Source of the DNA: Acinetobacter phage Aristophanes
Reading direction: 5' to 3' (one strand)
Length of the DNA: 43,505 nucleotides
Sequence record: MT783706.1
Shown here: piece after piece, positions 1-43,505 of the stretch
How the letters are laid out: the number at the start of each line of letters is the position of its first letter
Numbering within the stretch: the first letter of the stretch is position 1
Notes under the pieces: generated by a model
Databases searched by the model: none
Told to the model about the DNA's origin: nothing
Seen by the model: the letters and a program-made list of their open reading frames with translations, nothing else
Program-made: the position numbers and the translations under genes

Positions 1-184
1 ATCCTTCAGGGTATTCCTTCAGGAGTTCTTCAGGAGTTCTTCAGGAGTTCTTCAGGAGTTCTTCAGGAGTTCTTCAGGAGTTCTTCAGGAGTTCTTCAGG
101 AGTTCTTCAGGAGTTCTTCAGGAGTTCTTCAGGAGTTCTTCAGGAGTTCTTCAGGAGTTCTTCAGGAGTTCTTCAGGAGTTCTT
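1..184. repeat. Left copy of the direct terminal repeat (DTR) of a linear phage genome
   Basis: Positions 1-184 are identical to 43322-43505: 'atccttcagggtattcc' followed by tandem 'ttcaggagttc' units. The right copy is truncated by the window end, so the true DTR may be longer. Confidence 0.85.
18..182. repeat. 15 perfect tandem copies of an 11-bp unit (ttcaggagttc) inside the DTR; mirrored at 43339-43503
   Basis: Direct reading: 15 x 11 = 165 bp of exact tandem repeats. The unit contains AGGAG and its length matches the DNA helical repeat. Confidence 0.9.
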
Positions 185-35400: not shown

Positions 35401-36613
35401 CCTAGAATCTATCTACGATAAAGTACCTAAAGGTGTGGATACTAGGGAGCTACGAACATTCCTTAGTAGTGTTAAAGACGATTTACTAGGTAATGGTGCA
35501 GGTTCAGAAGTACCTAAGAGTATCCGTGCTGCACAAGCTATTGCTGATATGTTTTTACTTGCAGGTTCAGGTTTACTCTCGCTGGTCGATCTAACTACAC
35601 AAGTAGTCCGTACAGGTGTTATTAAGAACTTCTCTAATATACACTATGGTTTAAGAGCAGCGTTACTACCTATGCATAAATTCACTAAGGAGGAAGCTAC
35701 AGACTTAGCAGATATTATGACAGGTAGACTTATGCAAGGTTCACGTTGGAAATGGTTTCCTACGCACTACACAGATAATTACCAAATAACAGGTGGTGTC
35801 TACGAGGCAGCACAGTACTACGGGCAGAGTGCTAGATTCATGAACTTATCGGAATCTGTTAAACGATTCCAGATTGGTATCTTAGCTAATATGTACATTA
35901 GTGCTACTAAGAAAGCTGCTGCTGGTTCAGCCTCTGACATTGCGTTCTTGAGTAAGAAATTAAATATGTCAGATGAGTTAATCAAGAAGGTTATTGCTGA
36001 GTGGAATACTCATGGTAATAAGATTGATAACTGGAATGGCGATGTACGTATTGCTTATGAACAGAAGATCATGCACGAAGCAGATAACTTAGCCTTAACT
36101 ATTCAGAAGGGCGAGACACCTGCTATCTTAGAGTACAGTTCTGTAGGTAAGGTTATCTTTCCTTACATGCGTTATGCTTTCGCTGCACAGCAGAAGATTC
36201 TACGTAGAACGTACAACCGTGATGGTTCTGTAGGGTTAGCGTTGCTTATGGCAGCACAGATTCCTGTAGCTACAATGGTAGCTATGGCACAGAATATTCG
36301 TAATGGTAAAGAACCTGATGAGGATTTAGTGGTTGGTACTGTACGTGCTATGAGTGCTCTAGGTGTACTGAACTACCCGTTAGAGTTAATTATGGCTGGT
36401 TTAGGTCAGAACTCTGTAACAGCTTTAGCTCCGTTCAGTAAGTCTTATAACCTAATCGGACAGTTCTTTAACTCCTCAGGTAAACTTTTAGATGGGGATT
36501 ACGAGGTAGAGTTCGCAGATGAAGTAGATTGGTATCAAGTTCTAAAGAACTCTCCACTGAACGCTGCAACACCTTTACACTATTTATATTTAGGGTTTAA
36601 CCCAGAGGATTGA
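32429..36613 (+). CDS. Large internal virion/ejection protein (T7 gp16-like)
   Basis: 1394 aa with a GTG start preceded by AGGAG. It is the largest gene, upstream of the tail fibre. Confidence 0.6.
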   Translation: MAEQPNVNTVQPTDTTSKPVFYSIPDTAKAVQPVVYEPKQPTGGTTSLVGLLPTEVGEANNELAPTATDLNNNRAEPEEPPALEVFKENLAPTMTAMIENYVDSQVFERDLSYDPQDDADEFFKLHGQGDPYEINVLGSAISRPDMLNKQDRLLRRREQQERAAQRPVPAILGSMIDIDMALGGIGGFATKAGTGARILERIGQGAVAGAGIYMYNEAHAGSDIRTPDEKIWDVVGFGLSRALAPSVKAARRTEALDNAVDAELATVSGAGTPTRRTLPQEPVYTPVQTGVRTETKAPDLGSLQYTPVTDTPVSMRKVLDDVTARTANIEVDSPEALAAKQALVDDIIDGVAESTRVLPKAEDTVRGSVAAVHGSKVKNLKFTSNWNATTNAEDKSYFDNVFGDDVVYIAEDTAWTPRSPEEASAMRMPFYDNVYDVDAKFNKAFVLTPDSAPRLGVLVGGKATGVEVVSKLRALGYDGLIIRDMPDDYTAVRALSKISRLDEDVLQNQIVAFNPSNLKVVGEHTGRELASSLQSTSTTTGVGVKTQYQVPSTQSTTVLNPKGYGVLQQQYVLPKKLQDELDTETAKLAQDLTTGAIKTSNTEGYTRTELLKKNLVVNRMTSTADELAYYIGDDPTHPAYHLLASVTTEGDNVATAQAAMMNTYGALLVSTELALRAAIKEITGAGRGLFGSINGSYQENALRVFKDFQRGMQILDSKVVAFEGKHSRLPNDKELGTMLSTLNITGDANADVALKKVMETYMKSGFAERIYDDAKLLGTFGEDADKILRRPSYMPVKHNYDAMKKLVDDGKATWEEIEAFVGSQIVRMYPKLLDPKYAKAGRSFADVVKGAETAITNPFKLSVRQVGQHFIATQRGNAHNLGDVTSVGMNKTTMHTMLTKAGLSADDATVVVAKVFEDQQEVGKSVYKHGRRRIAWDWEDFLDTKSGYRITMADIVDNSAMSNLDAYSRGMAHRNGLARYNIKSEAELDTILESIYDKVPKGVDTRELRTFLSSVKDDLLGNGAGSEVPKSIRAAQAIADMFLLAGSGLLSLVDLTTQVVRTGVIKNFSNIHYGLRAALLPMHKFTKEEATDLADIMTGRLMQGSRWKWFPTHYTDNYQITGGVYEAAQYYGQSARFMNLSESVKRFQIGILANMYISATKKAAAGSASDIAFLSKKLNMSDELIKKVIAEWNTHGNKIDNWNGDVRIAYEQKIMHEADNLALTIQKGETPAILEYSSVGKVIFPYMRYAFAAQQKILRRTYNRDGSVGLALLMAAQIPVATMVAMAQNIRNGKEPDEDLVVGTVRAMSALGVLNYPLELIMAGLGQNSVTALAPFSKSYNLIGQFFNSSGKLLDGDYEVEFADEVDWYQVLKNSPLNAATPLHYLYLGFNPED

Positions 36614-36614
36614 T

Positions 36615-39596
36615 ATGACCAATAGTATTAACGAACTTAAATCTTATACAGAGTACAATGTGAATACACCTACAAGTGTGTTCACTATTGGATTCCAGTA
36701 CGAATATAACGTAGACCACGTTAACGTTACCGTAGATGGTGTAGAAGCTACAGCAGCAGGGTACACTATCCAACACGATTCACATGGTACAGTAACGCTA
36801 ACGCCTGCTGTACCTAGCGGTGTAGTACGCTTATCCCGTGAGACCGATATTGATACCGCAGCACACACCTTTAGTGCTGGGGCGAAGTTCACTGCTGGAA
36901 ACATGAATGAGAACTTCGAGCAGATTCGACACTCTCAACAAGAGGTACGTGATGGCTTCAGTAAACTTAAAGATGATATAGGCTTTACTAACCTAGAACA
37001 GACTGTACAAGCTGTGCGTATTATTGCTAACGAAGTCGAGGATAATGTCTCACAATCTCAAAGCTTACTAGATAACACAATAACCCAAGCCAATTTGGCG
37101 CAAGGTTACGCTGATAGTGCGAGCGTTGCAAATACTGCTGCCCAACAAGCTGCTGCCGATGCTCAGCAAGCGGTTATTGATGTAAGTACTGCGGAAGCTG
37201 ACGTTTATGCTGCTCTTTCAGCACAACAAACTACGGTTAATAACTCTTTAGCAGCCTACGTTGGTGGTCGAAAAGCCTACACAACCCTTGCTTTAGCACA
37301 AGCGGATCAGGCTAATCTACCTGCGAACACTGCTATTGAGGTCACTAACGATGGAGCAAACAACGGCACATACCAGTGGGACGGAACAACTCTTACAAAA
37401 TCAACCTACGATCCCCTTACTCAATCAAAGCTTTATACCAACAATAAGGTTCAAGACGAAATAAGTAAGGCTTTATCAGGTAAATTGCTAACTGTCGAGG
37501 ATCGTGTTGTTTACTCTCTCGACGGTGTTACATTAGAAAATGTGTATCAAGGTGATTTCTTTTTTACGGATGTATCTGTCGAAGCGGGGCAATGGTATCT
37601 GATTACATCTAACGCACTCGGTAGTGTTCGTGCTTATTATATCGCTAACGCATCAGGTAATTTAGTTAAGTACGGAGAACCTACAGTTTCAGAGGAGTTA
37701 GTACAAGTTCCAGTGGGCGGTGTACGTCTTGTTGTAAACTCACTTAAAACTGCACGAGATAATTTCTCTGTAAAGTTGCTTTCAAAAGATGAAGCAACAA
37801 TTTTACAGAAAGCAAAAGATGCTCCAAACCCAAAAACTTTAATCGAAAAAGCCTTATCAGGGAACATTGACACTACAATGAATAGCACGATCTATTCACC
37901 AGATGGTTTGACTTTAGATGCGGTTGCACATGCGGACCTTTTTTGTGCAGACATGAGCGTAAAAGAGGGCGACTGGTATCTAATCACATCTGATGCATCG
38001 GGCAGTGTTCGTGCTTACTACACAGCAAACGGCAATACAGTTAAGTCGTATGGCGAAGTTACAGAGTCGTTAAAATTCGTTCAGATTCCTGTAGGTGCAA
38101 ATCGCTTGATTGTGAATAGCTTAATTTCAAATAAAGACAAGTTTTCTGTAAAACTTCTTTCAAAAGACGAAGTGGCGTTGTTTAAAAGCTCACAGGTTGT
38201 CACAACAGTCCGAGATGCCTTTCCTTCGCGCCCAAGCTACCCAAACTTATTGAAAGAAAAGTGCCCTAAATTTTATGAAAAATTAAAGGGTAAGACAGGT
38301 GATCTAACCGTTTGTCTAACAGGAACGTCATTAACACTGGGCAACCTATACGCAACTGATCGAAGTGATGGCACAACTCGACCACCACAGTTACACACGA
38401 ATGACTTAGCTAGTGCAATCTTTGATTCATTAATTGGTTATTGGGATGGGCAACAGTATCGTCGTTATGATCATGCTGATCTAACATATTCATCAAGTGC
38501 ATGGGTAGTCACTAATGATGTAAAAGATGGTGAAAATTCAGTATGGGATGATCGTGCAGAGTACCGAAACGGTTTAACTAAAACGACAACTTCGGCAAAT
38601 GCAAGTGTTGCAATAACAATTCCAAGTGATGCTTGGCAGTTCAACTTTATTTATCGGAGTGACAGTCAAGGCGGTAATTGTACAGTTGCAATCTCGGAAG
38701 GAAATTCAAAAGTTGAGGTATTCAATGGCACTGCATGGGTTGAAGCAAACGGCTTTACATTCAGCATGTTAGAGTCTGCTGCTACTGCCACCAAAGGCAA
38801 TACTATATTTCAGAAGCGTTTAAAAATGCGCTGTAAAAATAAGGCAGGTGGTATTAACTCAATCGGCTCAACAAAACGAATCACAATTACAAAAGCGAAT
38901 GATAACACGCGCTTTAATGTGGTTGGCTTTGAATGGTCTCCGCGTGAGTTTATGTTCACGTTTATTAACTCAGCACGAGGCTCACACAACTGGGGTTTAG
39001 CAAATGGATACAATCTTGAAAATTATCAAGATGGTGATATTTGGAACTTTAATCCTGATTTAATCTTGTGTGAAGCAACAATTATCAATTGGGGTGGTTC
39101 ATGGGGTTATGATGTTGACCCGCTCTATTATTCTAATATTGCCAAACGTACTTACTTTAATGAGTTTAATGACAATCCGAACTCTTTGCATGTAAAATCA
39201 AACGCTTATCAGAACTGTGAAATTATTTTCTATGGTGACACTGTTTCCGCACACGATTCTCAAGCTGCTAGTTGGAATGGTAAGCAGCCTAGATTCGCAA
39301 CAGTCACAACAGCAGCAGATAATGGTAACGGCTCAACTGAAAATATTGGTAGAGTGAAAAATATCTTTGAGAACTATGCAGAAGTTGAAAGATATATGGC
39401 ATCTAAGGACCACATATTTATTCCTGTTTCTGTGATGTTTAAAAACGTTGCTGATAAATATTTCGGTAATTATTGGGATGCATTCAGAGGCACTGATAAA
39501 GCAGGTACAACACTCTCTTATGATGCGATCCACCTAAACGATAATGGTTACAAGCTCTGGTCACTGCCGATTGTGCCAATTTTTGAGAATCTATAA
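36615..39596 (+). CDS. Tail fibre/tailspike: T7 gp17-like N-terminal anchor, two tandem ~105-aa repeats and a C-terminal SGNH-hydrolase-like domain
   Basis: The N-terminus 'MTNSINELKSYTEYNVNTPTSVFTIGFQYEYNVDHVNVTVDG' is typical of T7-like fibres. Repeats lie at about 37508-37829 and 37891-38192. The C-terminus ends with 'YDAIHLNDNGYKLW' (DxxH block) and 'CLTGTSLTLGN' (GDS-like block). Confidence 0.9.
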   Translation: MTNSINELKSYTEYNVNTPTSVFTIGFQYEYNVDHVNVTVDGVEATAAGYTIQHDSHGTVTLTPAVPSGVVRLSRETDIDTAAHTFSAGAKFTAGNMNENFEQIRHSQQEVRDGFSKLKDDIGFTNLEQTVQAVRIIANEVEDNVSQSQSLLDNTITQANLAQGYADSASVANTAAQQAAADAQQAVIDVSTAEADVYAALSAQQTTVNNSLAAYVGGRKAYTTLALAQADQANLPANTAIEVTNDGANNGTYQWDGTTLTKSTYDPLTQSKLYTNNKVQDEISKALSGKLLTVEDRVVYSLDGVTLENVYQGDFFFTDVSVEAGQWYLITSNALGSVRAYYIANASGNLVKYGEPTVSEELVQVPVGGVRLVVNSLKTARDNFSVKLLSKDEATILQKAKDAPNPKTLIEKALSGNIDTTMNSTIYSPDGLTLDAVAHADLFCADMSVKEGDWYLITSDASGSVRAYYTANGNTVKSYGEVTESLKFVQIPVGANRLIVNSLISNKDKFSVKLLSKDEVALFKSSQVVTTVRDAFPSRPSYPNLLKEKCPKFYEKLKGKTGDLTVCLTGTSLTLGNLYATDRSDGTTRPPQLHTNDLASAIFDSLIGYWDGQQYRRYDHADLTYSSSAWVVTNDVKDGENSVWDDRAEYRNGLTKTTTSANASVAITIPSDAWQFNFIYRSDSQGGNCTVAISEGNSKVEVFNGTAWVEANGFTFSMLESAATATKGNTIFQKRLKMRCKNKAGGINSIGSTKRITITKANDNTRFNVVGFEWSPREFMFTFINSARGSHNWGLANGYNLENYQDGDIWNFNPDLILCEATIINWGGSWGYDVDPLYYSNIAKRTYFNEFNDNPNSLHVKSNAYQNCEIIFYGDTVSAHDSQAASWNGKQPRFATVTTAADNGNGSTENIGRVKNIFENYAEVERYMASKDHIFIPVSVMFKNVADKYFGNYWDAFRGTDKAGTTLSYDAIHLNDNGYKLWSLPIVPIFENL

Positions 39597-39616: not shown

Positions 39617-39647
39617 AACCCTGCCTTTTAATTAAGGTAGGGTTTTT
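39617..39647 (+). terminator. Rho-independent terminator after the tail fibre gene
   Basis: 11-bp stem aaccctgcctt / aaggtagggtt (one G-U wobble) with loop ttaatt, followed by 'ttttt'. Confidence 0.7.
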
Positions 39648-39696
39648 ATTACCAAAATTTAGGGGCATCGTGTCTGAAATGAAGCAAGAGGAATGA

Positions 39697-40080
39697 ATGA
39701 ACTTTATAGATCAGGTCTATTTGGTTCTGGTCTATACATGGTCAGAGCTAAGTAAGAACGCACATGTACTGATGGGGGCTATACTAGCTGTGACCATTTC
39801 GTATTTAAAAACTCACAAAGAGAAGCGAGAGCAGAACTGGGGTGAGAACCTACTATGCGGTATCTTTGCAGGTATCGCTCTTACAGGTGTTTCTATTATA
39901 CAAAAACTGATAGTACTAGCCTTCCCGTACTTAGCTGGTATTATCATCCCTACTGAGTTAGTAGTGGGGATGGTAGCAGGTATCATTGCTTGGTACGGTA
40001 CGGATGGTACTATTAAACTTATATCTAAATTCAAACGAGGTAAAGACAATGGCAGTAAGTCTACAGAAGATTCAAAGTGA
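39697..40080 (+). CDS. Holin (class I-like, three predicted TM segments)
   Basis: 127 aa with three hydrophobic helices and a charged C-terminus, located immediately upstream of the endolysin. Confidence 0.55.
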   Translation: MNFIDQVYLVLVYTWSELSKNAHVLMGAILAVTISYLKTHKEKREQNWGENLLCGIFAGIALTGVSIIQKLIVLAFPYLAGIIIPTELVVGMVAGIIAWYGTDGTIKLISKFKRGKDNGSKSTEDSK

Positions 40081-40636
40081 AGCTAAACGCTTAGGTGTTG
40101 AAGTTCCAGCTCTACGTGCTATCTTAGAGAAAGAGAGTTCTGGTTCAGGCTTTAATGCTGACGGTACACCTAAGATTTTGTATGAACGTCATATTATGTA
40201 CCGCCGTTTAGTACATAACAAAGGGCAACGAGTTGCTGATGTGTATGCCTTAAACCATCCTACACTGGTTAGTCCTAGAGGGTACGGAGCTGGTGGTTAC
40301 GGCAAGTACAGTGAACAACCTAAGAAGTTAGAGGCTGCTGCTAAGATTGATCGTACAAGTGCCCTAGAGAGTTGTTCTTGGGGTATTGCTCAGATCATGG
40401 GCTACCACTGGAAATTATGTGGTTTCAGCTCTATACAGCAATTTGTGAACGCTATGTACAAGTCGGAAGATTCACAGTTCGAAGTCTTTGTTAAGTTCCT
40501 AGAAGGTGCTGGTATTGTACCTTACCTGAAGAAGTTAGATTGGGCTGGTGTAGCTCTACGTTACAACGGTAGCAACTACAAACAGAACAACTACGATAAA
40601 GATTTAGCGAAGTACTACAAGCAATTCAAGGAGTAA
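40049..40636 (+). CDS. Endolysin, putative N-acetylmuramidase family
   Basis: 'LRAILEKESSGSGFNADGTPKILYERHIMYRRL' resembles the phage muramidase family motif (..ESxGxGF..RPKILFERHIF). The ATG at 40049 has a GAGG RBS and overlaps the holin end by 32 nt; the longer track ORF starts at 39986. Confidence 0.55.
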   Translation: MAVSLQKIQSEAKRLGVEVPALRAILEKESSGSGFNADGTPKILYERHIMYRRLVHNKGQRVADVYALNHPTLVSPRGYGAGGYGKYSEQPKKLEAAAKIDRTSALESCSWGIAQIMGYHWKLCGFSSIQQFVNAMYKSEDSQFEVFVKFLEGAGIVPYLKKLDWAGVALRYNGSNYKQNNYDKDLAKYYKQFKE

Positions 40637-40949: not shown

Positions 40950-42902
40950 ATGTTATCAGACACAGTTATTAGTCGGTACAAGATGCTACACCAAGCATGT
41001 CAGAAGTGGAATCATCAACCTGAACTCATACCGCTTGAGGAGAGGGAACTACTAGCTACTATCTGTGCTGGTGCTTTCAGGGAGTTCCGAGACTTCGCTG
41101 AAGTGGGTATGCAGTACTTAGGCTTCAAGTTATCTAGTATTCAATCAGACATTGCTGTGTTCATGCAGTACGGTCAGAACAAACGTATGGTGCAGGCACA
41201 ACGTGGGCAGGCTAAGAGTACCTTAGCAGCGTTGTACTGCATCTGGTTACTTATACATAAACCAAGTACACGAGTACTTATTGTATCAGGTGGTGGTGAT
41301 CAAGCAGATGCTATTAGTATTCTAGTAGTTCGTATTATTATGAACTGGAGTATCTTAGCGTGGTTACGTCCTGATACTACTAGAGGTGACAGGGATAGTA
41401 CAAAGAACTTCGATGTACATGGTTCATTGAAGGGTATTGATAAATCAGCTAGTGTAAGCTCAGTAGGTATCACAGCGAACCTACAAGGTAAACGTGCTGA
41501 CTTCATCCTCGCCGATGATATAGAAACGCAGAAGAACTCTATGACTCAACCTATGCGTGAGCAGTTGCTGTTACTAACTAAAGAGTTCGCAGCTATCTGT
41601 ATCACAGGTGAGATTATGTACTTAGGTACACCTCAGACTAAAGATTCTGTGTATCGAGTACTACCTCAACGTGGTTACGATGTGCGTATCTGGACTGGAC
41701 GTTACCCTACAGAAGAAGAACTACAACGCTATGGTGCTGGTACACAAGTAGCACCTACGATCATGCAGAAACTCTTAGAGAATCCAGACCTACAGACTGG
41801 TGGTGGTATCACAGGTAAACGTGGTCAACCTACAGACCCTGATCATATCTCAGAGGAGATTCTTCAAGAGAAAGAGTTAGAATACGGTGATGAAGGCTTT
41901 GCCTTGCAGTACATGCTCGATACAACGCTCTCAGACGCTCTTAGAACGAAGATTAAGCTCAGTGATATGATAGTACTAGGGGTAGGCTCAGAGAGTGCTC
42001 CTGAGAGCGTACAGTGGTCCTGTGAGCCTACTAAGCAGTTCAAAGACCTGAACCCTGCTATTACATCGTTCAGGATGTACTATGGTGCAGGCGTATCTGA
42101 GAACTACGTTAAGTACGAACACAAGGTGATGTGTGTAGACCCATCAGGTGATGGTGGTGATGAGTTAGCTTACGCTGCTGGAGGAGCTACAAATAGTTAT
42201 ATTTATTTACTATCGGTAGGTGGCTTCAGAGGTGGTTTAACAGAGCAGAACATTAACTTGATTCTACAGAAGATGATTACTCTTGGTATTAAAGACCTCC
42301 AGATCGAGAAGAACATGGGTCATGGTGCTGTTACAGCGTTGTTCCTAGCACAGATAGATAAACTACGTCTGTGGTGCGCTATGGACTCGCAGGAGGAGTC
42401 TTTTAAGGAGTTCTGTACTCAGGTACAGCTAACGCCGTTGGAACTCTCTACGAGGCTCTCAGGCATTGGTGTGACGGATTATCATGTACTCGGACAGAAA
42501 GAGAAGCGTATTATTGATACGATCTCCCCAGTGACTCGTAGGCATAAGCTAGTGGTTAGCACAGAGGCTATTGCAGAGGATTGGGAGATGTGTATGAAGC
42601 ATCCCCCTGATAGACGAGTGTTCTACAGTGCGTTCTATCAGTTAGGTAACATCACTTACGATAGGCAGTCTCTAGTTAAGGATGACCGAGCAGACGCTGT
42701 ACAAGCTCTTGTAGAGCGATTACAGGGGTATTTAGCTAAGGATGAGGCTAAGGTAGCAGTAGAGCGTCAAGAGGCTGCTATGAAGGAATGGTTAGCGAAT
42801 CCGATGGGGTACACTGATAGTCAGTACCGTAGAGAGGCTAGGGGTAGACCTAGAACAACAGGTTCAAGTTTAAATAGGAGAGGTTTCGGTGGTAGAAGAT
42901 AA
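40950..42902 (+). CDS. Terminase large subunit (T7 gp19-like)
   Basis: 650 aa with 'ADFILADDIETQ' (Walker B-like). It is the last large gene before the right end. Confidence 0.8.
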   Translation: MLSDTVISRYKMLHQACQKWNHQPELIPLEERELLATICAGAFREFRDFAEVGMQYLGFKLSSIQSDIAVFMQYGQNKRMVQAQRGQAKSTLAALYCIWLLIHKPSTRVLIVSGGGDQADAISILVVRIIMNWSILAWLRPDTTRGDRDSTKNFDVHGSLKGIDKSASVSSVGITANLQGKRADFILADDIETQKNSMTQPMREQLLLLTKEFAAICITGEIMYLGTPQTKDSVYRVLPQRGYDVRIWTGRYPTEEELQRYGAGTQVAPTIMQKLLENPDLQTGGGITGKRGQPTDPDHISEEILQEKELEYGDEGFALQYMLDTTLSDALRTKIKLSDMIVLGVGSESAPESVQWSCEPTKQFKDLNPAITSFRMYYGAGVSENYVKYEHKVMCVDPSGDGGDELAYAAGGATNSYIYLLSVGGFRGGLTEQNINLILQKMITLGIKDLQIEKNMGHGAVTALFLAQIDKLRLWCAMDSQEESFKEFCTQVQLTPLELSTRLSGIGVTDYHVLGQKEKRIIDTISPVTRRHKLVVSTEAIAEDWEMCMKHPPDRRVFYSAFYQLGNITYDRQSLVKDDRADAVQALVERLQGYLAKDEAKVAVERQEAAMKEWLANPMGYTDSQYRREARGRPRTTGSSLNRRGFGGRR

Positions 42903-43321: not shown

Positions 43322-43505
43322 ATCCTTCAGGGTATTCCTTCAGGAGTTCTTCAGGAGTTCTTCAGGAGTTCTTCAGGAGTTCTTCAGGAGTTCTTCAGGA
43401 GTTCTTCAGGAGTTCTTCAGGAGTTCTTCAGGAGTTCTTCAGGAGTTCTTCAGGAGTTCTTCAGGAGTTCTTCAGGAGTTCTTCAGGAGTTCTTCAGGAG
43501 TTCTT
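43322..43505. repeat. Right copy of the direct terminal repeat (truncated by the window end)
   Basis: Exact repeat of positions 1-184. Confidence 0.85.

What the first reader, a model, noticed from the sequence alone, without database searches (positions are those of the whole stretch)
36615..39596. Mosaic tail fibre with a T7-like anchor, an internal tandem domain duplication and a C-terminal SGNH-type esterase domain
The first ~155 aa match the conserved T7 gp17 N-terminal virion-attachment region. From about 37080 onward the nucleotide composition and codon choice change: more AAA, TTT, GCG and CAA, and lower GC. This suggests a horizontally acquired receptor-binding module. Within it, two ~105-aa segments are about 50% identical ('VYSLDGVTLENVY...SVKLLSKDEATIL' and 'IYSPDGLTLDAVA...SVKLLSKDEVALF'), a tandem duplication of a putative carbohydrate-binding domain. 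The C-terminal 430 aa carry SGNH-hydrolase hallmarks: 'CLTGTS' (block I Ser) and 'YDAIHLNDNGYKLW' (block V DxxH). The fibre may therefore enzymatically deacetylate or cleave a surface polysaccharide, as known for some tailspike esterases.
Basis: partly seen in the sequence, partly recalled or inferred. Interest (0 to 1): 0.7.

Follow-up and report, generated by a model that had tools for sequence, protein, structure and literature searches.

The report
Known phage tailspike capsule deacetylase

Summary
The 993-aa ORF at 36615..39596 (+) is real. It is identical to QNO11465.1, tailspike gp41 of Acinetobacter phage Aristophanes. The window is that phage's whole 43,505-bp genome. The published cloning primers match exactly at codon 167 and at the stop codon.

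- **N-terminal anchor:** a Friunavirus/T7-type anchor (PDB 5js4, E=7e-27).
- **Tandem duplication:** two units of about 125 aa, with 60% identity over the 99-aa core. The alignment scores 277, against 26±5 for shuffled sequence.

Timoshina et al. 2021 (PMC8471582) already showed by NMR that gp41(167-993) removes the 4-O-acetyl group of 6-deoxytalose in K26 capsule and blocks infection.

Corrections:
- The prophage-like module starts near aa 212-226, not aa 155. The GC drop starts near 37,725.
- The duplication is old and inherited, not specific to this phage.

Small additions:
- The repeat is a β-sandwich domain with no Pfam family. It occurs in at least 602 protein clusters, usually in 2-4 copies, often beside SGNH esterases.
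- The module shares 81-85% DNA identity overall, with patches of 99-100%, with A. baumannii prophage fibres of two other virion types.

Verdict: correct, and already known.

The parts
36615..37019 (+). N-terminal particle-binding (anchor) domain of the tailspike, aa 1 to about 135
   Evidence: phmmer against PDB: the phiAB6 tailspike 5js4 matches aa 5-132 at E=6.8e-27. Pfam Phage_T7_tail matches aa 7-143 at 22 bits, below the gathering score of 25.2. PHROG tail-fibre families match at E down to 2e-29. Identity to Friunavirus and Daemvirus tailspikes is 45-54%.
37020..37265 (+). Ala/Gln-rich shaft segment, aa about 136-217, with its own codon bias (GCG and CAA enriched)
   Evidence: Co-linear at 36% identity (aa 5-278) with the SWH-Ab-1 and PD-6A3 tail fibres. 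Only 25-30% identical to the prophage fibre P0030. The published recombinant enzyme starts inside this segment at codon 167, nt 37113.
37266..37460 (+). Neck segment, aa about 218-282. This is the first segment shared at protein level with Acinetobacter prophage tail fibres.
   Evidence: Identity to P0030 is 50-75% from aa 226 onward. P0005 aligns from aa 212 and P0002 from aa 274.
37461..37841 (+). Repeat unit 1 (aa 283-409): β-sandwich domain followed by a short helical linker
37842..38204 (+). Repeat unit 2 (aa 410-530): second copy of the same β-sandwich domain
   Evidence: 53% identical to unit 1 over the whole unit and 60% over the core. 79-98% identical to the second units of A. baumannii prophage proteins. 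99-100% nt identity to prophage locus L004 over 38000-38199.
38205..38444 (+). First part of the SGNH esterase domain (aa 531 to about 610), with block I and the catalytic Ser572 in 'LTGTS'
38445..38945 (+). All-β domain (aa about 611-777) inserted in the SGNH fold between blocks I and II
38946..39596 (+). Second part of the SGNH esterase domain (aa about 778-993) plus the stop codon. It holds block II Gly789, block III Asn825 and block V Asp970-x-x-His973.
   Evidence: G789, N825 and H973 are each invariant in 48/48 homologues. Position 970 is Asp or Glu in 47/48. Blocks II, III and V align co-linearly with 6hfz. The published reverse primer matches 39574-39596 exactly.
39617..39654 (+). Intrinsic-terminator-like hairpin plus T-run just downstream of the gene, inside the stretch shared with the prophage
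   Evidence: Terminator scan: an 11-bp stem with 5 G-C pairs, and 0.1 such sites expected by chance. blastn homology to L004 runs on to 39658.

Best explanation
The gene encodes gp41, the single tailspike of the lytic podovirus Acinetobacter phage Aristophanes (Autographiviridae, Beijerinckvirinae). Its parts, in order:
- **aa 1 to about 135:** the N-terminal domain docks the trimer onto the tail.
- **aa about 136-282:** a helical shaft and neck.
- **aa 283-530:** two tandem β-sandwich domains.
- **aa 531-993:** an SGNH esterase domain that carries an inserted β-sandwich, the topology of the Neisseria Ape1 O-acetylesterase.

The catalytic residues are Ser572, Asp970 and His973. Gly789 and Asn825 form the oxyanion hole. 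The enzyme removes the 4-O-acetyl group from 6-deoxytalose in the K26 capsular polysaccharide of A. baumannii and does not cut the polymer. This step is needed for adsorption, because free gp41 blocks infection.

**What is shown:**
- The identity of the protein.
- The fold and the conservation of the catalytic residues (this work).
- The deacetylation and the blocking of infection (published experiments).

**What is inferred:**
- The assignment of the individual catalytic residues.
- The trimeric state.
- A glycan-binding or spacing role for the tandem repeats.
- An origin of everything from about aa 212-226 onward by recombination with tail-fibre genes of temperate Acinetobacter phages.
For: **Identity.**
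- The exact sequence is QNO11465.1, 'tail spike protein [Acinetobacter phage Aristophanes]', on a 43,505-bp contig.
- Both published cloning primers match with no mismatch, at 37113 (codon 167) and at 39574-39596.
- The paper gives a 43,505-bp genome, 42.5% G+C and 184-bp terminal repeats. All three are reproduced here.

**Fold.**
- The AF2 model of aa 530-993 has pLDDT 95.4 and pTM 0.93.

**Catalytic residues.**
- S572, G789, N825 and H973 are invariant in 48/48 homologues down to 27% identity. Position 970 is Asp or Glu in 47/48.
- All four SGNH blocks align co-linearly with 6hfz.

**Function.** NMR shows deacetylation of K26 capsule, free protein competes out infection, and plaques lack halos (PMC8471582).

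**Recombination.**
- DNA identity is 81% to a siphovirus-type prophage (L001) and 85% to a P22-like prophage (L004), from 37724/37725 to the end of the gene. Patches reach 99-100%.
- GC of aa 371-993 is 0.392, close to the roughly 39% of the host and below every comparable stretch of the phage genome.
Against: - No Pfam GDSL/SGNH model matches the protein, even at E≤1.
- The family profile hits solved SGNH structures only weakly by sequence (E=0.04). The SGNH assignment therefore rests on predicted structure, motif conservation and the published HHpred result.
- Block I reads G-T-S, not the canonical G-D-S.
- No catalytic-residue mutant has been reported in the papers I read.
- The trimer and the relative position of the domains were not modelled. 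The two-repeat model has pTM 0.44.
Confidence: 0.93

Rival explanations
1. The C-terminal domain is a capsule depolymerase, a glycosidase or lyase that cleaves the polysaccharide backbone, like almost all other Friunavirus-type tailspikes. On this reading it is not a deacetylase.
For: The N-terminal anchor is homologous to that of phiAB6 and other Acinetobacter depolymerase tailspikes. The recombinant protein gives a very weak opaque halo.
Confidence: 0.02
2. The physiologically relevant substrate is another O-acetylated envelope polymer, such as O-acetylated peptidoglycan (as for Ape1) or lipooligosaccharide. Capsule deacetylation would then be a side activity.
For: Ape1-type peptidoglycan O-acetylesterases share the unusual inserted-domain topology and align over 253-261 residues. 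HHpred in the paper picked Ape1 (4K7J) as the best template.
Confidence: 0.04
3. The two tandem β-sandwich repeats do not bind carbohydrate. They are structural spacers or trimer-packing domains that only set the distance between the shaft and the enzyme.
Against: Among the better structural matches are bona fide CBMs: a porphyran-binding CBM, xylan-binding domains and CBM32. In BFVD the same fold decorates many phage receptor-binding proteins, including CBM-cenC proteins. Across 54 family members the repeats are preferentially fused to carbohydrate-active SGNH esterases.
Confidence: 0.4

Closest known systems
Acinetobacter phage Aristophanes tailspike deacetylase gp41 (QNO11465.1; Timoshina et al. 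2021, Viruses 13:1688, PMC8471582)
   Same: It is the same protein. The sequence is an exact match over all 993 aa, the genome length and terminal repeats agree, and the primers match exactly. The published domain scheme also agrees: a phiAB6/T7-like N-terminus and an SGNH-like region at aa 548-991.
   Different: Nothing differs in sequence. The papers I read never use the words duplication, tandem, carbohydrate-binding or prophage for this protein. The following therefore appear to be unreported:
- the two repeat units;
- their wider family;
- the individual catalytic residues;
- the DNA-level junction with prophage genes.
Neisseria Ape1 peptidoglycan O-acetylesterase (PDB 4k3u/4K7J; also 8gld)
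   Different: Identity is 11-12%. Ape1 is a periplasmic bacterial enzyme acting on peptidoglycan. It is not a virion protein, it has no anchor, shaft or tandem repeats, and its substrate is different.
Esterase tail fibre gp63.1 of E. coli phage G7C (PDB 4qnl) and phage SFP21A Gp09 (9lna)
Hypothetical tail-fibre proteins of Acinetobacter prophages (e.g. P0002, P0030/P0003, P0001; prophage tailspike esterases of Kolupaeva et al. 2025, PMC12115436)
   Same: Identity is 79-92% over the repeats plus the esterase, and DNA identity is 81-85%. They share the architecture of two repeats followed by SGNH with an insert. The 2025 paper reports similar AlphaFold trimer architectures for other A. baumannii prophage esterases and for Aristophanes gp41.
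   Different: Their N-terminal attachment parts differ. They sit in a siphovirus-type tail module (DUF2460/Phage_BR0599 neighbours) or in a P22-like module. The copy in L004 is frameshifted. None has been assayed.
SASA-type SGNH tail fibres of Acinetobacter phages PD-6A3, SWH-Ab-1, fEg-Aba01 and others (PMC11058221)
   Same: PD-6A3 and SWH-Ab-1 share the N-terminal 278 aa at 36% identity, and they also end in an SGNH-superfamily domain.
   Different: Their catalytic domain matches Pfam SASA, whereas gp41 matches no Pfam esterase model. tblastn found no similarity beyond aa 278.

Membership tests
Aristophanes gp41 (identity with a published, characterised protein) | Identical amino-acid sequence and genomic context | tested here: met
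   The exact-sequence look-up returns QNO11465.1 on a 43,505-bp contig. The primers from the paper match at 37113 and 39574 with no mismatch. Genome length, 42.5% GC and the 184-bp terminal repeats all agree.
SGNH/GDSL hydrolase superfamily | Three-layer α/β/α fold with a central parallel β-sheet | tested here: met
SGNH/GDSL hydrolase superfamily | Block I nucleophilic Ser in a G-D-S-like motif near the N-terminus of the domain | tested here: met
   Ser572 in L-T-G-T-S-L is invariant in 48/48 homologues. It aligns with the G-G-S of esterase 6hfz. The motif is GTS rather than GDS.
SGNH/GDSL hydrolase superfamily | Block II Gly and block III Asn (oxyanion hole) | tested here: met
   Gly789 (N-S-A-R-G-S) and Asn825 (I-I-N-W-G) are each invariant in 48/48 homologues. 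They align co-linearly with the INAGIGG and SVNDD of 6hfz.
SGNH/GDSL hydrolase superfamily | Block V D-x-x-H (catalytic Asp and His) | tested here: met
   In D970-A-I-H973, His is invariant in 48/48 homologues and position 970 is Asp or Glu in 47/48. The motif aligns with the D-D-L-H of 6hfz.
SGNH/GDSL hydrolase superfamily | Match to a curated sequence model (Pfam Lipase_GDSL, Lipase_GDSL_2, SASA, etc.) | tested here: not met
   No Pfam esterase family matches at E≤1. None of the 69 homologues carries a precomputed GDSL domain. This is a gap in model coverage, not a defining structural feature.
SGNH/GDSL hydrolase superfamily | Esterase (O-deacetylase) activity | not testable with these tools
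   The activity is published for this protein. NMR shows loss of the 4-O-acetyl group of 6dTal in K26 capsule after treatment with gp41(167-993) (PMC8471582).
T7 gp17-type / Friunavirus tailspike N-terminal particle-binding domain (PF03906) | Sequence match to the family model or to a solved member | tested here: inconclusive
   Pfam PF03906 scores 22 bits, below the gathering score of 25.2, at E=1.4e-4. The N-terminal domain of phiAB6 tailspike 5js4 matches at E=6.8e-27. The paper reports HHpred E=1.2e-4 to T7 gp17. Membership of the Friunavirus-type anchor is clear. Direct membership of the Pfam T7 family is borderline.
T7 gp17-type / Friunavirus tailspike N-terminal particle-binding domain (PF03906) | [quoted passage not shown] | tested here: met
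   The gene follows the 1394-aa ORF that ends at 36613. After it come a 127-aa ORF with hydrophobic stretches, a 216-aa ORF and the terminase large subunit at 40950-42902.
Ape1-like SGNH esterases with an inserted β-sandwich | All-β domain inserted between block I and block II | tested here: met
Carbohydrate-binding module (for the tandem repeats) | β-sandwich fold | tested here: met
   AF2 gives two β-sandwich domains with pLDDT about 80-92.
Carbohydrate-binding module (for the tandem repeats) | Significant similarity to a curated CBM family | tested here: not met
Carbohydrate-binding module (for the tandem repeats) | Demonstrated glycan binding | not testable with these tools
   The papers I read contain no such experiment.

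The most novel reading that the evidence does not exclude
The tandem β-sandwich repeat (aa 283-409 and 410-530) belongs to an uncatalogued domain family with no Pfam model. The family has at least 602 representatives of 50%-identity clusters, typically with 2-4 copies per protein.

On the novel reading, this family is a new class of carbohydrate-binding module that travels with SGNH and other envelope-active enzymes. In gp41 it would hold the acetylated K26 chain and so contribute to K-type specificity. The catalytic domain would then not be the only determinant of host range.
Probability: 0.3. Interest if true: 0.35.

Novelty: already known. Interest (0 to 1): 0.12.

Why it matters
Tailspike deacetylases show that a phage can recognise and commit to a capsule by editing it rather than digesting it. 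That bears on predicting host range and on using phage enzymes against A. baumannii. For this gene the point was made experimentally in 2021, so the finding adds no new biology. It does show that the first-stage reader can recover a correct functional call from raw sequence.

The residual value lies in four modest annotations:
- explicit candidate catalytic residues for mutagenesis (S572, G789, N825, D970, H973);
- the recognition of a widespread, unnamed tandem β-sandwich domain that accompanies SGNH esterases;
- evidence that the same receptor-binding cassette moves between a lytic podovirus and temperate siphovirus-type and P22-like Acinetobacter phages;
- a corrected position for the recombination junction.

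Tried and rejected
- **Megablast against 'phages'.** The gene and nt 1-25000 of the window gave either no match or only about 70% matches to Friunavirus. The window's own GenBank record is evidently not in that collection. Identity had to be established through the literature, the primer matches and the exact-protein look-up.
- **Pfam on the full protein.** It gave nothing for the repeats or the esterase.
- **Word-indexed homologue search with the repeat region.** It returned only one fragment, P0070, although P0002 and P0030 clearly contain the repeats. This is a sensitivity artefact of that tool. It was overcome with a local HMM and the exhaustive profile search.
- **Family profile against PDB sequences.** It gave only marginal E-values (0.012-1.2). 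The result served only to check that the motifs are co-linear.
- **The afdb50 fold library.** It was not available, so BFVD was used instead.
- **A recent DNA-level tandem duplication in this phage (rejected).** The two units share only short patches at the DNA level (75% over 69 nt and 82% over 38 nt). Unit 2 is 79-98% identical to the second units of prophage proteins but only 53% identical to its own unit 1.
- **Homology between the repeats and the β-insert of the SGNH domain (rejected).** The repeat HMM gave only non-significant hits there (i-E 8-25).
- **Minus-strand ORFs inside the gene** (36644-36904, 37637-37888, 38810-39013, 39333-39533; 66-86 aa). I treated these as chance ORFs, because all genes of this phage are on one strand.
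Full report
**1. What is at the coordinates**

The ORF listing gives a single long ORF at 36615..39596 (+), 993 aa with an ATG start. It begins one base after the 1394-aa internal-virion-protein ORF ends. After it come a small 127-aa ORF with hydrophobic stretches, a 216-aa ORF and the terminase large subunit.

**2. Identity of the sequence**

A literature search for SGNH tailspikes of Acinetobacter phages led to Timoshina et al. 2021 (PMC8471582). The paper describes a 993-aa tailspike, gp41 (QNO11465), of phage Aristophanes. The genome is 43,505 bp with 42.5% G+C and 184-bp terminal repeats.

- The window is 43,505 bases with 42.5% GC, and its first and last 184 bases are identical.
- The paper's forward cloning primer matches the window once, with no mismatch, at 37113. 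That is exactly codon 167, and the paper expressed aa 167-993.
- The reverse primer matches at 39574-39596, which ends on the stop codon.
- The exact-sequence look-up returns QNO11465.1, 'tail spike protein [Acinetobacter phage Aristophanes]'.

The window is therefore the complete genome of that phage (MT783706), and the finding concerns its gp41. The 'phages' BLAST collection does not seem to hold this record. Megablast found nothing for the gene and only about 70% matches to Friunavirus for the left 25 kb. The terminase is 65-67% identical to those of Acibel007 and Friunavirus phages. This agrees with the published placement in a separate genus of the Beijerinckvirinae.

**3. The N-terminal anchor**

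- phmmer against PDB sequences aligns aa 5-132 with the N-terminal domain of the phiAB6 tailspike (5js4, E=6.8e-27).
- tblastn finds 45-54% identity over aa 1-135 in 168 Acinetobacter phage records.
- PHROG tail-fibre and tailspike families match the first 120-230 residues.
- The Pfam T7 tail-fibre model matches aa 7-143 with only 22 bits, below its gathering score of 25.2.

The 'T7 gp17-like' label is thus a remote relationship. The paper reports HHpred E=1.2e-4 to T7 gp17. The Friunavirus-type anchor is the close relative.

**4. The tandem duplication**

- The two cores (99 and 98 aa) align with 60% identity. The score is 277, against 26.3±4.7 for shuffles.
- The complete units are aa 283-409 and 410-530, each a β-domain followed by a short helical linker. 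They are 53% identical.
- An AF2 model built on 13 homologous two-repeat segments gives two β-sandwiches with pLDDT about 80-92. The linkers are of low confidence and pTM is 0.44, so the relative orientation is unknown.
- Foldseek against BFVD finds the same tandem β-sandwich arrangement in many phage tail proteins. The top hit is a GDSL-lipase-containing siphovirus protein (E=1.7e-11), and distal tail proteins and CBM-cenC proteins also appear.

The duplication is not specific to this phage.

- A local HMM finds one to three copies in the Acinetobacter homologues of the esterase.
- Unit 2 of gp41 is 79-98% identical to the second units of the prophage proteins. Unit 1 is about 50-60% identical to every other unit.
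- At the DNA level the two units share only short patches.
- An exhaustive profile search of 1.84 billion cluster representatives finds 602 proteins at E≤1e-3, and 76 at E≤1e-10. Most of the 150 best-scoring proteins, which are the ones listed, have 2-4 matched stretches.
- Of 54 of these scanned against Pfam, none has a family on the repeat itself. Fourteen carry Lipase_GDSL_2, ten Lipase_GDSL, ten DUF4886 and seven Peptidase_M14, and a few carry phage-fibre domains.

The repeat is therefore an unnamed, widespread accessory domain that often accompanies SGNH esterases. A carbohydrate-binding role is plausible but untested.

**5. The C-terminal esterase**

- The word-indexed search with aa 530-993 finds 69 homologues, none with a Pfam esterase domain. 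They are mostly Acinetobacter 'hypothetical proteins', and the set also includes gp01 of Pseudoalteromonas phage PH1 at 34% identity.
- In a 48-sequence alignment that reaches down to 27% identity, Ser572, Gly789, Asn825 and His973 are invariant. Position 970 is Asp or Glu in 47/48.
- AF2 with this alignment gives pLDDT 95.4 and pTM 0.93.
- The model has a run of β-strands between block I and block II, at about aa 611-777. This is an inserted all-β domain, as in Ape1. The Ape1 topology is from my own knowledge of Williams et al. 2014, which both Acinetobacter papers cite.
- A profile search against PDB sequences is statistically weak (E=0.04 for 6hfz). It nevertheless aligns blocks I, II, III and V co-linearly with that enzyme.

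**6. Function**

The 2021 paper shows that recombinant gp41(167-993) changes the NMR spectrum of K26 capsule only at 6-deoxytalose. The H-4 signal moves from δ 5.38 to 3.93, which means the 4-O-acetyl group is lost. Pre-incubating host cells with the protein abolishes plaque formation. The phage makes plaques without halos. The alternative, 'or cleave', is excluded.

**7. Mosaicism and composition**

Codon usage is heterogeneous in three blocks.

| Measure | aa 1-155 | aa 156-370 | aa 371-993 | Other phage genes |
|---|---|---|---|---|
| TTT/Phe | 0.29 | 0.67 | 0.67 | 0.30 |
| GCG/Ala | 0.09 | 0.21 | 0.10 | 0.10 |
| CAA/Gln | 0.67 | 0.81 | 0.31 | 0.50 |
| AAA/Lys | 0.75 | 0.43 | 0.72 | 0.42 |

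GC of aa 371-993 is 0.392, below the minimum (0.406) of all equally long stretches of the other genes and close to the host's roughly 39%.

- Protein-level similarity to prophage fibres begins at aa 212-226 (P0005, P0030) or aa 274-285 (P0002, P0003).
- DNA-level homology begins at 37724/37725 and runs to the end of the gene. In one case it runs 62 nt further, through a terminator-like hairpin at 39617-39644.
- Identity to the P22-like prophage L004 is patchy: 57-70% before 38000, 99-100% at 38000-38199 and 74-96% downstream.
- The related genes lie in two different prophage types. One is a siphovirus-type tail module with a long (1010-1012 aa) ORF in the position of a tape-measure gene and DUF2460/Phage_BR0599 neighbours. 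The other is a P22-like module.
- The N-terminal 278 aa are co-linear at 36% identity with the tail fibres of PD-6A3 and SWH-Ab-1, which end in a different, SASA-type SGNH domain.

Exchange of esterase tailspike genes among unrelated A. baumannii prophages, and their architectural similarity to Aristophanes gp41, was already noted by Kolupaeva et al. 2025 (PMC12115436).

**8. Verdict**

The text of the papers I read does not contain the following:
- an explicit statement of the tandem duplication and of its wider, unnamed domain family;
- the assignment of S572, G789, N825, D970 and H973;
- the nucleotide-level recombination junction with prophage genes.

These are useful annotations rather than discoveries.

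Noticed in passing
window 1-184 and 43322-43505: Exact 184-bp direct terminal repeats. The window is a complete linear Autographiviridae genome, and the repeats match the published description of phage Aristophanes.
   Followed up: yes
window 39617-39654: A strong intrinsic-terminator-like hairpin (11-bp stem plus a T-run) lies just after the tailspike stop codon. DNA homology with the P22-like prophage L004 continues through it to 39658, so the exchanged cassette seems to include the terminator.
   Followed up: partly
L004:10001-12828: In the P22-like A. baumannii prophage the homologous fibre gene is split by a frameshift inside the esterase domain. P0030 (667 aa) ends in out-of-frame residues and the next ORF (276 aa) continues the esterase. 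This is a likely pseudogene or a sequencing error.
   Followed up: partly
window 38000-38199 versus L004: A 200-nt patch of 99-100% identity sits inside an otherwise 74-96% identical region. It suggests a very recent gene-conversion or recombination event between this lytic phage lineage and a temperate Acinetobacter phage.
   Followed up: partly
proteins P0071-P0220: The repeat-domain profile detects 602 cluster representatives, most with 2-4 copies among the 150 listed. The domain has no Pfam family. The partner domains are mainly GDSL/SGNH, DUF4886 and Peptidase_M14, which makes this a candidate for a new domain-family definition.
   Followed up: partly
window 39986-40636: The mechanical ORF for the 216-aa ORF downstream of the tailspike starts at a TTG that overlaps the preceding 127-aa ORF by 95 nt. 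An internal ATG near 40086 is a more likely true start. I did not check this further.
   Followed up: no
whole window versus the 'phages' collection: Megablast does not find the window's own GenBank record (MT783706) in the phage collection, although the exact protein is in the protein collection. 'No DNA match' in that collection should therefore not be read as novelty.
   Followed up: yes
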